DNA of 60,122 bases from a virus (taxonomy: Duplodnaviria; Heunggongvirae; Uroviricota; Caudoviricetes): the IMG/VR virus record IMGVR_UViG_2851938318_000007; one strand, written 5' to 3'. The position numbers are program-made. Shown piece by piece: positions 18,001 through 21,000 of this stretch (position 1 is its first letter; each line of letters begins with the position of its first letter).

Positions 18001-21000
18001 TTCAGCAGGTTTATAAATCTGTACTGAATGTGCTGTGGAACTGGATTCTGTTCCGTAAATTCTCCTCTCAGGAGGAAGTTGAAAATGTGGCCGCACAACT
18101 ACTGGAGTTTGCGTAATGGTGAATTTACGTAAAGCGGCTAAAGGCCAGATATGCCAGATCAGAATCCCTGGCTACTGCAATCACAATCCCGAAACCTCTG
18201 TGCTGGCGCATTACAGGCTGGCGGGAACGTGCGGAACAGCGATAAAGCCACACGATATGCAGGCAGCGATTGCCTGTAACTCATGCCACGATTTAATCGA
18301 CGGGAGAGTAAAAACCAGCGATTACACCAAAGAAGAATTGCGCCTGATGCATGCAGAAGGTGTTTTTCGCACACAAGAGATCTGGAGAAAGGACGGTTAT
18401 TTATGATTTACCCAACGAACACAGGAAAAAGCGGAGAGCACCTTCGTCTCACCACGCTGGAAAGTGTCTGGATTCAGGGGAAACTACGTATGTGGGGGCG
18501 CTGGTCGTATATTGGCGGCGGTAAGACGGGAAATATGTTCAACCAGTTGCTGACCTCTAAAAAGCTGACAAAAACGGCAATTAACGAGGCGCTCCGGAGG
18601 ATGAAAAAAGCAGGTCTGGACAAACCTAAACTTGAGGCTTTTTTGCGGGATATGATCAACGGCAAGCAAAAAAGCTGGCTGGTGCATTGTACCGATTCAG
18701 AGGCGTTAATAATCGACAGGGTTATTGGTGAAGTACTGGCAGGTTATCCCGGGCTGCTCAATGTTCTGAGTCAGCGTTATGTGGGGCGGGGGATGACTAA
18801 GCGCAAAATGGCTGAACTGCTGAATGATGCACATCCGGAATGGAGTTTAAGAACCTGTGAAAGACGCATTGAGCATTGGCTAAAGGTGGCAGAATTTATT
18901 TTGTACAAACCAATGGTTATGGCTTTTGGTATAGAGAAAAAAGTTATTGCTTTTTGACGTAAAAACTGCTTCAATTCCGGTAAGCTTCGCAAAGCTGTAT
19001 CGCGAGGCGAACCAAACGCATGAACTTTACCAGAACCCGCCATTGAGCGGGTTTTTTATTGCGGAATTAATTACGGACCGTTATTATTCTGCTCCCGGCC
19101 CTTTAGCTCAGTGGTGAGAGCGAGCGACTCATAATCGCCAGGTCGCTGGTTCAAATCCAGCAAGGGCCACCATCACAAACCGCCATTAGCTTATCAGGAA
19201 GAGCAGACGACACCATAACAGGGTTGTTGGTGCGGGGGCGGGTCCCCGATGGCGGTCCATTATCGGTATTCTGCGTTGTTAGCTCAGCCGGACAGAGCAA
19301 TTGCCTTCTAAGCAATCGGTCAGTGGTTCGACTCCACTACAACGCGCCACACTTATTTTCCAGGCTCGCTTCGGCGGGCCTTTTTTGTATCTGCGCCACG
19401 CCCGGCGCATATCAACCACAGAGCCTTTCGGGGGTGAGCTTACGGAGTGGTCAGTGTGACTTTCTCTGTGGGCAGATCGCTCCCGGGCGTTGGCTCACCC
19501 ACCCAAAGGAACGTCACGATGTTTGGAATCTTCAAAAAGAAAACCCGCAGAGCGGCAGCGGAAATTAAAAAGTTTGAGAAACGCGATCTGGCACAGGCGG
19601 TGATTAACGCTGCATACCTGGTGGCCTATGCAGATGGTGAATGCGAGGCATCCGAGAAAGCGAAGATCGAACAGGTCTTACGTAATCAGCCTGCGTTGTC
19701 TGCGTTTACCTCGGAAATTAATGCGATTAGCGCAACTATTATCGGTCAGCTGGATACCAATTTTAAAATTGGTCGTCGTGCCGCGTTACGCGAGATTGAG
19801 GATGTGAAACACGATACGCGTGAAGCGGAAGATGTGCTGGATGTGGCGGTGGCCATTGCGGAGGCAGACGGCGAAATTGAGCCGGAAGAGCGCAAGGTGC
19901 TGGAAGAGATTGCCGGTGTTCTGGGTCTTCGTCTGGAGAATCACCTGTGACGGTAAAACTGCGCCTGGCTGTGGCTGCACTCCTGCTGTTTCTGGTGGTG
20001 ATGGTGGATTTCACCAGCAGAATCATGTCGGTGCTGGCGGATGGGGTGCTGGTCTGCGGCATTGTGGTATTGCTGTGGCCGGTGATAAAAAGAAACAGCC
20101 TGCATAATGCTTGATTTTTTTGTTTGCTGTTTATTAAAAACACTTCTGCATGGTGAATCCCCCTGTGCGGAGGGGCGATCAGCAACCAGGTATATGGGAT
20201 AATCGCGGATTCAGGTGCTGATACTGAATTCACCGGGAGGCACCCGGCACCATGCAAGAAAAAGAATGTGCATGCAAACATGCCCCTCTCCGGAGGGGCT
20301 TTTTTATGGGTAAAAAATGCCCGAATGGGTTCGGGCAATAGCATGAGATACTGATATTGTTGTGTTGTTATCGTGTGGATTTTAACCAGGGTTTATCAGG
20401 CTGCGCAACTGCGTGGCCTTTTTTCATTTCTTGGGCTGTAGTCCCCGTGTGTCATTCAGGCTTCCGGACTACAGCCCACTCCATATCTGATTTAATACAC
20501 TATCCCGGCCGGGAGGAATAATGACATTTAAACATTATGATGTTGTCAGGGCGGCGTCGCCGTCAGACCTTGCGGAAAAGCTGACACACAAACTGAAAGA
20601 GGGCTGGCAGCCATACGGCGGACCGGTTGCCATTACGCCGTACACACTGATGCAGGCGGTGGCTATTGAAGGAGAGCCACAGGTCGGCCCTTCATCTGAG
20701 CCGGATTGGTACTACGTCATCGTACTGGCCGGGCAGTCCAATGCCATGGCTTACGGTGAAGGGCTTCCGCTGCCGGATTCATACGATGCTCCGGATCCGC
20801 GCATTAAACAGCTGGCGCGCCGCAGTACAGTGACGCCGGGCGGGGCTGCCTGCAGATATAACGATATTATTCCGGCTGACCACTGTCTGCATGATGTGCA
20901 GGATATGAGTACGCTGAATCATCCGAGGGCTGACCTGAGCAAAGGGCAGTACGGCTGTGTCGGCCAGGGTTTACATATTGCCAAAAAACTGCTCCCGTAT

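What the first reader, a model, noticed from the sequence alone, without database searches (positions are those of the whole stretch)
18950..20520. Stx-phage-like late region without stx: Q-like gene, tR'-like terminator, two tRNAs, then a TerB-like gene where stxAB would sit
The order Q-like gene, TTGACG promoter-like hexamer at the Q stop, terminator, tRNA(CAU), tRNA-Arg(UCU), about 1.1 kb, nanS-p-like esterase, holin matches Stx-converting phages. The 1.1 kb slot holds only a TerB-like ORF and several strong hairpins, with no AB5 toxin genes. This is either a toxin-free relative or a locus where a different cargo is placed under late-promoter control.
Basis: partly seen in the sequence, partly recalled or inferred. 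Interest (0 to 1): 0.55.

Follow-up and report, generated by a model that had tools for sequence, protein, structure and literature searches.

The report
Known non-Stx EHEC prophage late region
This is the ordinary, already described late-gene control region of a non-toxin lambdoid prophage of enterohaemorrhagic E. coli, in which the slot that holds Shiga toxin genes in Stx phages holds a common two-gene TerB-like cassette (tciA-tciB) followed by two known small regulatory RNAs.

Summary
The gene order is Q-like gene, terminator, tRNA(CAU), tRNA-Arg(UCU), TerB-like gene, nanS-p esterase, holin, and there is no stx anywhere in the window.

These are a second overlapping gene (tciB, DUF3927), the sRNA STnc100 (20119-20311, +) and the anti-GcvB sRNA AgvB (20312-20373, -). 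The two sRNAs explain most of the "strong hairpins".

Alignment with phage 933W shows homology on both sides of the slot. tciA-tciB sits exactly where stx2AB sits.

The window is 100% identical to E. coli O111:H8/H- chromosomes, in a prophage at ttcA. The tciAB cassette occurs at 4315 places in 1144 of 5426 complete E. coli genomes, behind at least three Q types. It is absent downstream of the same Q type in other Enterobacteriaceae, so it is mobile cargo and not a core gene.

The Q-like protein is a distant Q21-family member. The block after its stop codon matches the annotated phage 21 late promoter in register, with an identical pause element TAAGCT.

This layout was published by Tree et al. 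2014. TciAB function remains untested. Verdict: already known, low interest.

The parts
18403..18957 (+). Q-like late antiterminator gene (DUF1133 subfamily, a distant member of the Q21/Q933W family)
   Evidence: Pfam DUF1133 at 8.7e-106 and PF06530 at 33.7 bits, above its cut-off of 26. PHROG 753, 'anti-termination protein Q-like'. phmmer against the solved Q21 structures 6JNX/6P18 gives E 3.6e-4 over nearly the full length. A profile of 21 homologues gives E 1e-5.
18947..18986 (+). Inferred late promoter pR'.
   Evidence: TTG, T.AAT and TA.GCT are invariant in 13 diverged loci. When the sequences are anchored on TAnGCT, the layout matches the annotated pR' of phage 21, whose pause element is TAAGCTG. 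Relatives carry TGAGCA at the same register as the phage 21 upstream Q-binding subsite. This mapping is inferred and was not tested.
19032..19061 (+). tR'-like intrinsic terminator
   Evidence: A 9-bp stem followed by a U-tract. The stem is conserved in nearly all loci that carry this Q type.
19059..19087 (+). Putative tRNA promoter (TTGCGG-N17-TATTAT), equivalent to 'pT' of 933W
   Evidence: Read directly from the sequence. It aligns with the region annotated as pT in NC_000924.
19097..19172 (+). tRNA with anticodon CAU, equal to ileZ (tRNA-Ile2 type)
   Evidence: ARAGORN and Rfam call it. It is identical to 933W ileZ. PGAP names it tRNA-Ile.
19179..19262 (+). Degenerate argN-derived tRNA remnant
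   Evidence: Its acceptor-stem ends align with 933W argN, but the anticodon arm and T-loop are replaced. ARAGORN does not call it, even with relaxed options, and Rfam does not either.
19273..19349 (+). tRNA-Arg(UCU), equal to argO
19362..19387 (+). Intrinsic terminator at the left edge of the cargo slot
   Evidence: Found by the terminator scan. Folds at -14.6 kcal/mol with z = -3.96. It is conserved in 933W, JLK-2012 and PPyecE_EH1910.
19519..19950 (+). tciA, a TerB-family protein of 143 aa
   Evidence: PF05099 at 60.2 bits. PHROG 632. Klebsiella TerB 2JXU at E 4.4e-8. Median dN/dS 0.022 over 30 intact alleles.
19947..20114 (+). tciB, a DUF3927 small membrane protein of 55 aa with two hydrophobic helices. 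Its GTG start overlaps the tciA stop codon.
   Evidence: PF13064 at 62.3 bits. PHROG 1470. It is conserved next to tciA in P1, Erwinia phage ChrisDB, the N4-like phage Pollock and JLK-2012.
20119..20311 (+). STnc100-family sRNA (related to PasD) with its own terminator at 20282-20299
   Evidence: Rfam RF02076 at 145.8 bits against a gathering score of 47. Folds with z = -4.15. The 5' half is conserved in 933W.
20312..20373 (-). AgvB anti-GcvB sponge sRNA, convergent with STnc100
   Evidence: Rfam RF02702 at 96.5 bits against a gathering score of 56. The GcvB-target consensus CACAACA lies at 20358-20364 (read on the minus strand) and a terminator hairpin is present. The family is described in PMC4104026.
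20398..20478 (+). A terminator hairpin (20398-20419) and a long 13-bp hairpin (20432-20478) just upstream of nanS-p
   Evidence: The terminator scan. Folds at -42.9 kcal/mol with z = -6.4. Both are conserved in 933W.
20521..22374 (+). nanS-p-type sialate O-acetylesterase
   Evidence: Pfam DUF1737 + SASA + DUF6645. 54% amino-acid identity to the 933W esterase.
22524..22739 (+). Class II holin S, the start of the lysis cassette
   Evidence: PF04971 at 1.7e-32. 91.5% identical to 933W S.

Best explanation
This is the late-operon leader of a non-Stx lambdoid prophage integrated at ttcA in an O111 EHEC chromosome. It is built on the same scaffold as Stx phages.

The proposed mechanism is as follows. 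A distant Q21-family antiterminator is encoded directly upstream of its own late promoter. RNA polymerase starting there pauses at the -10-like element TAAGCT. Without Q it stops at tR' (19032-19061), giving a short RNA of about 75 nt. With Q it reads through tR', through the tRNA block and its terminator (19362-19387), and through the cargo slot. It then passes the terminators of the sRNA block and enters nanS-p and the lysis genes.

The cargo slot (about 19400-20118) carries tciA-tciB instead of stxAB. TciA is a TerB-fold protein and TciB is a 55-aa two-helix membrane protein. The two genes are translationally coupled. No consensus promoter of their own was found, so they are most likely expressed mainly as Q-dependent late genes.

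The ileZ and argO tRNAs probably have their own promoter. STnc100 and the convergent AgvB are independent sRNA genes that act in the lysogen. AgvB sponges GcvB.

What is shown here: the anatomy, the homologies, the synteny, and the mobility and abundance of the cassette. What is inferred: the promoter, Q-binding and pause-element mapping, and the Q-dependence of tciAB expression. The function of TciAB is unknown. My best guess, at about 0.3, is a membrane-associated accessory function that serves the phage during lytic growth rather than lysogenic conversion.
For: - Identity and annotation: 100% identical to O111:H8/H- chromosomes, with matching PGAP features.
- Protein families.
- Q21 relationship.
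- Promoter and terminator block: it is conserved across about 19 loci whose Q proteins are 51-83% identical to this one. It is in register with the experimentally defined and annotated pR' of phage 21, and the pause element TAAGCT is identical.
- Position of Q: in other species this Q type is followed by holin and lysozyme within 1-3 kb.
- Slot boundaries against 933W.
- Terminators.
- No sigma-70 consensus promoter on the + strand anywhere in the scanned 18800-22800 except one inside nanS-p at 21553-21580, so none lies between 19388 and 19518.
- sRNAs.
- Published layout: Tree et al. 2014 describe the same arrangement.
- Abundance and mobility of the cassette.
- tciA is under strong purifying selection, with median dN/dS 0.022.
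- The tciA-tciB pair is conserved in virulent phages (N4-like Pollock, Erwinia jumbo phages) as well as temperate ones. This argues for a role in the phage's own cycle.
Against: - No transcript data for this locus were examined, so the start site, the pause and Q-dependence all rest on homology.
- The window's -10 candidates (TTCAAT or TCAATT) lack the usual A at the second position.
- The sequence at the Q-binding position (TGACGT / AAACTG) is not an obvious direct repeat.
- The Q-like protein is only weakly similar to Q21 (E about 1e-4 to 1e-5).
- The consensus scan is crude, so a weak or non-sigma-70 promoter in the structured 130-nt tciA leader cannot be excluded.
- This copy of the prophage looks defective. 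In the 99.995%-identical record the portal gene is frameshifted and IS1203 sits in the antirepressor gene. Late expression here may therefore never occur.
- P1 tciABC are dispensable for plaque formation (PMC10695390), so any lytic-cycle role is conditional.
Confidence: 0.8

Rival explanations
1. tciA-tciB is a classical lysogenic-conversion moron. It would be expressed from its own promoter in the uninduced lysogen. It would give the host a stress phenotype of the kind seen with the plasmid ter operon, such as resistance to tellurite, oxidative stress, colicins or phage.
For: The family names and the PHROG category are 'moron ... tellurite resistance'. TciA aligns with the ter-operon protein TerB, 2JXU. 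EHEC genomes keep a median of 4 copies and up to 10. [quoted passage not shown] The 130-nt leader travels with the cassette and could hide a promoter.
Against: The scan finds no promoter in the leader. The cassette sits behind two intrinsic terminators and inside the late operon. Homologous tciA-tciB pairs occur in strictly virulent phages, where lysogenic conversion is meaningless. No experiment links TciA to tellurite resistance; the names are by homology only (the P1 record notes). GC content is not distinct from the neighbouring sequence.
Confidence: 0.25
2. The locus is an inert relic. The prophage is cryptic, the late operon is never transcribed, and the cassette persists only by hitch-hiking.
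For: In the 99.995%-identical record (its only difference over 40.6 kb affects one NanS-p residue) the portal gene is frameshifted. A KilAC antirepressor gene is split by IS1203, argN is degenerate, and several effector genes are pseudogenes.
Against: Q, tciA, tciB, nanS-p, S and R are all intact ORFs. tciA alleles differ mostly at synonymous sites, with dN/dS 0.022. AgvB copies at the same position are abundantly expressed and functional in Sakai (PMC4104026).
Confidence: 0.12
3. It is a former Stx phage that lost stxAB by deletion.
For: Both flanks are homologous to 933W at about 82% identity.
Against: The slot is filled by a conserved, selected two-gene cassette with its own leader, not by a deletion scar. 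The same cassette lies behind Q21-type, Q933W-type and DUF1133-type Q genes, at 4315 places in 1144 genomes. The Q gene, pR' and tR' here are unrelated in sequence to those of 933W.
Confidence: 0.04

Closest known systems
Late regions of non-Stx lambdoid prophages of E. coli O157:H7 Sakai (Sp3, Sp4, Sp9, Sp10, Sp11, Sp15, Sp17), as described by Tree et al. 2014 (PMC4104026)
   Same: The order is the same: Q, PR', moron CDS, convergent sRNA pair, conserved ORF (nanS-p), lysis genes. An AgvB-family anti-sRNA sits at the same place and in the same orientation. The window carries AgvB with the CACAACA motif.
   Different: None of substance. This is the O111 counterpart. That paper does not discuss the TerB/DUF3927 cassette itself.
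Stx2a phage 933W late region (NC_000924)
   Same: A putative tRNA promoter, ileZ, argO, the terminator after argO, an STnc100-like block, an anti-sRNA (AsxR there, AgvB here), a hairpin pair, nanS-p, then S and R. The cargo slot has the same boundaries.
   Different: The cargo is tciA-tciB, not stx2AB. argN is degenerate. The Q gene, pR' and tR' belong to a different, non-alignable type. The 5' variable seed of the anti-sRNA differs.
Phage 21 / JLK-2012 late control cassette (Q21, pR'21, QBE, SDPE, tR', tRNAs)
   Same: The Q gene ends a few bases before the -35 element. The pause element TAAGCT is identical. The Q-binding position is in the same register. The terminator is followed by tRNA genes. 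JLK-2012 also carries tciA-tciB next.
   Different: The Q protein is only remotely similar (E about 1e-4). The -35 lies 2 bp closer to the pause element. The window lacks the TGAGCA repeats. The tRNAs differ (Asn/Thr/Gly against Ile2/Arg).
Phage P1 tciA-tciB-tciC
   Same: A TerB-like gene and a DUF3927 gene are adjacent and translationally coupled, next to tRNA genes that include a CAU tRNA-Ile2. TciA is 42-51% identical and TciB is 50% identical.
   Different: P1 has a third small gene, tciC, and the genes lie in a different operon context. They are non-essential by CRISPRi.

Membership tests
Q21/Q933W antiterminator family (Pfam PF06530) | Sequence match to the family model above the curated threshold | tested here: met
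   PF06530 scores 33.7 bits against a cut-off of 26. The stronger match is to DUF1133, at 351 bits.
Q21/Q933W antiterminator family (Pfam PF06530) | Similarity to the solved Q21 protein | tested here: met
   phmmer gives E 3.6e-4 over residues 13-181. A profile of 21 homologues gives E 1e-5.
Q21/Q933W antiterminator family (Pfam PF06530) | The gene lies directly upstream of a promoter, a sigma-dependent pause element and a terminator, followed by late and lysis genes | tested here: met
   A conserved block holds TTG, TA.GCT and a terminator. The pause element is identical to that of phage 21. Lysis genes lie downstream in other species.
Q21/Q933W antiterminator family (Pfam PF06530) | A direct-repeat Q-binding element between the -35 and -10 elements | tested here: inconclusive
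   Relatives carry TGAGCA at the phage 21 register. The window has TGACGT and AAACTG, which do not form a clear repeat.
Q21/Q933W antiterminator family (Pfam PF06530) | Antitermination activity | not testable with these tools
   This needs a read-through reporter or in vitro transcription.
Stx-converting phage | stxA and stxB between Q and the lysis genes | tested here: not met
   tblastn with Stx2A/B against the window gives a best E of 0.86. The slot holds tciA-tciB.
Stx-converting phage | Late-region scaffold of tRNAs, sRNA block, nanS-p and S | tested here: met
   Alignments with 933W.
TerB family (PF05099) | Sequence match to the family and to solved TerB, with the two ADGE-type acidic motifs | tested here: met
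   60.2 bits against a cut-off of 24.4. 2JXU at E 4.4e-8. D39 and D117 are invariant in the alignment; the flanking A, G and E of the ADGE motifs vary in P1 and Pollock.
TerB family (PF05099) | Tellurite, colicin or phage resistance phenotype | not testable with these tools
   No experimental report was found for the phage TciA proteins; the names are by homology.
AgvB anti-sRNA (RF02702) | Covariance-model score above gathering, a 5' CACAACA GcvB-target motif, a 3' terminator, and a position convergent to the moron downstream of PR' | tested here: met
   96.5 bits against 56. The motif is at 20358-20364 and a hairpin is present. The position matches PMC4104026.
STnc100 sRNA (RF02076) | Covariance-model score above gathering | tested here: met
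   145.8 bits against 47, matching the full model length.
Moron in the strict sense (Juhala et al. 2000) | Own promoter and terminator, deviant base composition, and variable presence among related phages | tested here: inconclusive
   Variable presence is met. No promoter of its own was found. GC of 0.53-0.56 is not distinct from the flanks.

The most novel reading that the evidence does not exclude
tciA-tciB is not a host-benefit 'tellurite resistance' moron. It would instead be a conserved and strongly selected phage module that acts at the membrane during lytic growth, for example in envelope or PMF maintenance, lysis timing, exclusion or counter-defence. The module is shared by lambdoid, P1-like, N4-like and jumbo phages. 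On this reading it is the default occupant of the post-pR' slot, and stxAB displaced it when Stx phages arose.
Probability: 0.3. Interest if true: 0.4.

Novelty: already known. Interest (0 to 1): 0.12.

Why it matters
The finding has little value as a discovery. The layout is published, the genes and sRNAs are annotated by standard pipelines, and hundreds of sequenced EHEC genomes carry identical copies.

It is useful as a clean example of the modular late region. One scaffold (Q, pR', tRNAs, slot, sRNA pair, nanS-p, lysis genes) accepts either Shiga toxin or tciAB.

The one open point is that TciA-TciB has no known function. It is present at thousands of prophage loci, it is found in virulent phages, and tciA is under strong purifying selection.

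Tried and rejected
- **Promoter at TTGACG.** Comparative alignment then showed that the hexamer is not conserved.
- **Defence role for TciA/TciB.** The PADLOC scan gave only a sub-threshold hit, so no defence assignment was made.
- **tciAB and tRNA linkage.** I considered a functional link between tciAB and tRNA clusters. The linkage is seen in lambdoid phages, P1 and an Erwinia jumbo phage. It is absent in Pseudomonas phage AF, Klebsiella pJN2-26 and Escherichia phage CharmingMan, so it is not general and I dropped it as an explanation.
- **Partial cassette hits.** A partial hit to the cassette in O104:H4 and other genomes (27% coverage) turned out to be a small remnant in an IS-rich island and is not another slot variant.
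- **Sandbox file search.** The first three sandbox attempts to read the phage loci failed only because several loci are stored in one file.
- **stx elsewhere in the host genome.** I could not check this, because the window's exact source genome is not known and whole genomes cannot be scanned with these tools.
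Full report
**Source of the window.** The stretch 18400-20600 is 100% identical to many E. coli O111:H8/H- chromosomes. In NZ_AP019761 it lies in a lambdoid prophage integrated next to ttcA, the Rac site. That prophage has Rac-like early genes, HK97-like head genes, and T3SS effector genes at its far end. Window 1-40600 is 99.995% identical to that record.

**Check of the observation.**
- The Q-like ORF is 18403-18957. It matches DUF1133 at 1e-106 and PF06530 Phage_antitermQ at 33.7 bits, above the cut-off of 26. It also matches PHROG 753, "anti-termination protein Q-like".
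- TTGACG is at 18954-18959 and overlaps the TGA stop codon.
- A 9-bp hairpin with a U-tract lies at 19032-19055.
- ARAGORN finds tRNA(CAU) at 19097-19172 and tRNA-Arg(UCU) at 19273-19349. The first is identical to 933W ileZ, and PGAP calls it tRNA-Ile.
- The TerB-family ORF is 19519-19950, the nanS-p-type esterase is 20521-22374, and the P21-type holin is 22524-22739.
- tblastn with Stx2A and Stx2B against all 60 kb finds nothing better than E = 0.86.

- The TerB gene is followed by a 55-codon DUF3927 gene at 19947-20114. Its GTG start overlaps the TerB stop codon. Phage annotation calls these two genes tciA and tciB.
- Rfam places two families above their gathering scores in the "hairpin" region. 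STnc100 is at 20119-20311 on the + strand (145.8 bits). AgvB is at 20312-20373 on the minus strand (96.5 bits).
- The AgvB copy has the GcvB-target consensus CACAACA at 20358-20364 and a terminator hairpin.
- Two further conserved hairpins precede nanS-p, at 20398-20419 and 20432-20478.
- Between the two tRNAs lies a decayed copy of 933W argN that no tRNA finder calls.

**Synteny with Stx phages.**
- Against 933W there is no alignable similarity in Q, pR' or tR'.
- Homology begins at about 19060, in the region annotated in 933W as the putative tRNA promoter pT. Here that region reads TTGCGG-N17-TATTAT at 19059-19087.
- Homology runs through ileZ, the argN remnant, argO and the terminator at 19362-19381, and ends at about 19400-19416.
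- It resumes at about 20123, the start of STnc100. It continues through the 3' conserved part of the anti-sRNA and both hairpins into nanS-p.
- The slot of about 720 bp therefore corresponds exactly to the stx2AB slot.

**Is the cassette core or cargo?**
- It occurs at 4315 places in 1144 of 5426 complete E. coli genomes, with a median of 4 and a maximum of 10 per genome.
- The tRNA block occurs at 7588 places and the sRNA block at 8303 places.
- In IMG/VR prophage contigs the cassette lies behind DUF1133-type, Q933W-type and Q21-type Q genes. The tRNA sets there are ileZ+argO, ileZ+argN+argO or Asn+Gly, or a methylase and toxin-antitoxin pair takes their place.
- About 20 loci in other Enterobacteriaceae carry the same Q type followed by a holin and lysozyme within 1-3 kb, and none has TciA.
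- It is therefore mobile cargo, not a core gene, but in EHEC it is the common occupant of the slot.

**The late promoter.**
- The scan finds no consensus promoter at TTGACG.
- An alignment of the Q-downstream region from 13 diverged loci shows three invariant elements: TTG at 18947-18949, T.AAT at 18971-18975 and TA.GCT at 18981-18986. The terminator stem is nearly invariant in the same alignment.
- The annotated phage 21 record gives the order -35 TTGACA, QBEu ATTGAGCA, QBEd AATGAGCA, -10, start site, pause element TAAGCTG, terminator, then tRNA genes. This follows the structural work on Q21 (10.1101/651190, PMC6606751).
- When all loci are anchored on TAnGCT, the window's TAAGCT equals the phage 21 pause element. 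The TTG lies at -34, against -36 in phage 21.
- Several relatives carry TGAGCA or TGAGCC at -26 to -21, the exact register of the phage 21 QBEu core. The window has TGACGT there.
The -10 lies within 18970-76 and the start site near 18981. This mapping is an inference from homology.

**Relationship of the Q-like protein to Q21.** The similarity is weak but consistent. phmmer gives E 3.6e-4 over nearly the full length, a profile of 21 homologues gives E 1e-5, and the N-terminal W..G.L..WG.W motif is shared.

**How the region most likely works.**
- Transcription from pR' ends at tR' unless Q is present. This step is inferred from the phage 21 and lambda paradigm.
- Q-modified polymerase would then pass at least two terminators before tciAB and at least two more before nanS-p.
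- tciAB has no detectable promoter of its own, so it is probably a late gene pair, as stx2 largely is.
- The two sRNAs are separate genes. The AgvB family is experimentally characterised in Sakai as a GcvB sponge that aids growth in bovine rectal mucus (PMC4104026). STnc100 is related to PasD (10.64898/2026.05.13.724894).

**TciA and TciB.**
- TciA aligns with Klebsiella TerB (2JXU) at E 4.4e-8.
- tciA alleles differ almost only at synonymous sites, with median dN/dS 0.022.
- The tciA-tciB pair is conserved in P1, D6 and SJ46, in Erwinia jumbo phages, and in N4-like phages such as Pollock.
- P1 tciABC are dispensable for plaque formation (PMC10695390).
- PADLOC has no convincing match.
- No experimental function was found.
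- Presence in virulent phages favours a role in the phage's own cycle over lysogenic conversion, but this is a weak inference.

**Comparison with what is known, and verdict.**
- Tree et al. [quoted passage not shown]
- Zhu, Shabalina and Storz 2026 list TerB as a conserved neighbour of prophage sRNAs.
- PGAP and PHROGs already name all the genes.
- The finding is correct, incompletely described, and already known.

Noticed in passing
window 19179-19262: A decayed copy of tRNA-Arg argN lies between ileZ and argO. The acceptor-stem ends are conserved with 933W, but the anticodon arm is replaced by a long hairpin and the T-loop is mutated. About half of the related IMG/VR loci keep an intact argN (anticodon tcg), and one has a tRNA-Lys there instead.
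   Followed up: partly
window 13200-17100 (13518-14669 +, 14637-15626 -, 15626-17017 -): A low-GC island (32-38% GC) lies between the replication genes and the nin-like genes. It holds a C5 cytosine DNA methylase (PF00145), a PF20553 'putative O-methyltransferase' and a GHKL-type ATPase (HATPase_c_3). It looks like a restriction or defence-type insertion. The ATPase, the only one of the three scanned, has no PADLOC match.
   Followed up: partly
window 19097-20114; L033 (P1) 1116-2776; L032 (Erwinia phage ChrisDB) 886-3277; L003 (JLK-2012) 2792-3786: tciA-tciB lies next to tRNA gene clusters in lambdoid phages, in P1 (tRNA-Asn and tRNA-Thr upstream, tRNA-Ile2 CAU downstream) and in an Erwinia jumbo phage. 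It does not in Pseudomonas phage AF, Klebsiella pJN2-26 or Escherichia phage CharmingMan. This may reflect a shared mobile block rather than a functional link.
   Followed up: partly
window 18987-19031: A second block downstream of the pause element (TCGCAAAGCTGTATCGCGAGGCGAA) is conserved in the closest relatives and lies inside the predicted short pR'-tR' RNA. By analogy with the StxS sRNA of Stx phages, this roughly 75-nt RNA might itself be regulatory.
   Followed up: no
window 19420-19496: A long imperfect hairpin in the tciA leader is conserved in JLK-2012 and PPyecE_EH1910 and travels with the cassette. The leader 19382-19530 as a whole folds at -58 kcal/mol with z = -2.3. Its role is unknown.
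   Followed up: partly
window 22375-22495: A structured intergenic region with a strong terminator (22457-22485) lies between nanS-p and the holin gene. This is the position where the PasA/PasC sRNAs are reported in EPEC/EHEC prophages. There is no Rfam match.
   Followed up: no
window 1557-1735: Rfam RalA (225 bits), the antitoxin sRNA of the RalR/RalA type I toxin-antitoxin system, lies in the Rac-like early region next to recET.
   Followed up: no
window ~24450-25760 and 53273-54582: There are two identical IS1203 (IS3-family) copies, each with an ALIL frameshift pseudoknot. One splits a KilAC antirepressor gene just after the lysis genes. The other lies next to a truncated nleF.
   Followed up: no
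window ~44000-60000: The prophage's far end carries sodC, a lom-family gene and a T3SS effector cluster (nleH1-2, truncated nleF, nleG, espM1, and an NleG pseudogene). In the 99.995%-identical record the portal gene is frameshifted, so the prophage is probably defective.
   Followed up: no
L011 (JARKOR010000130.1): A 5.2-kb contig binned as a 'Candidatus Nanosynbacter' MAG is 99.7% identical to window 5351-7619 over a 2.3-kb stretch. It also carries the DUF1367, YbcO and Q-like genes (86-100% amino-acid identity). This is almost certainly a binning contaminant from an enterobacterial prophage.
   Followed up: no
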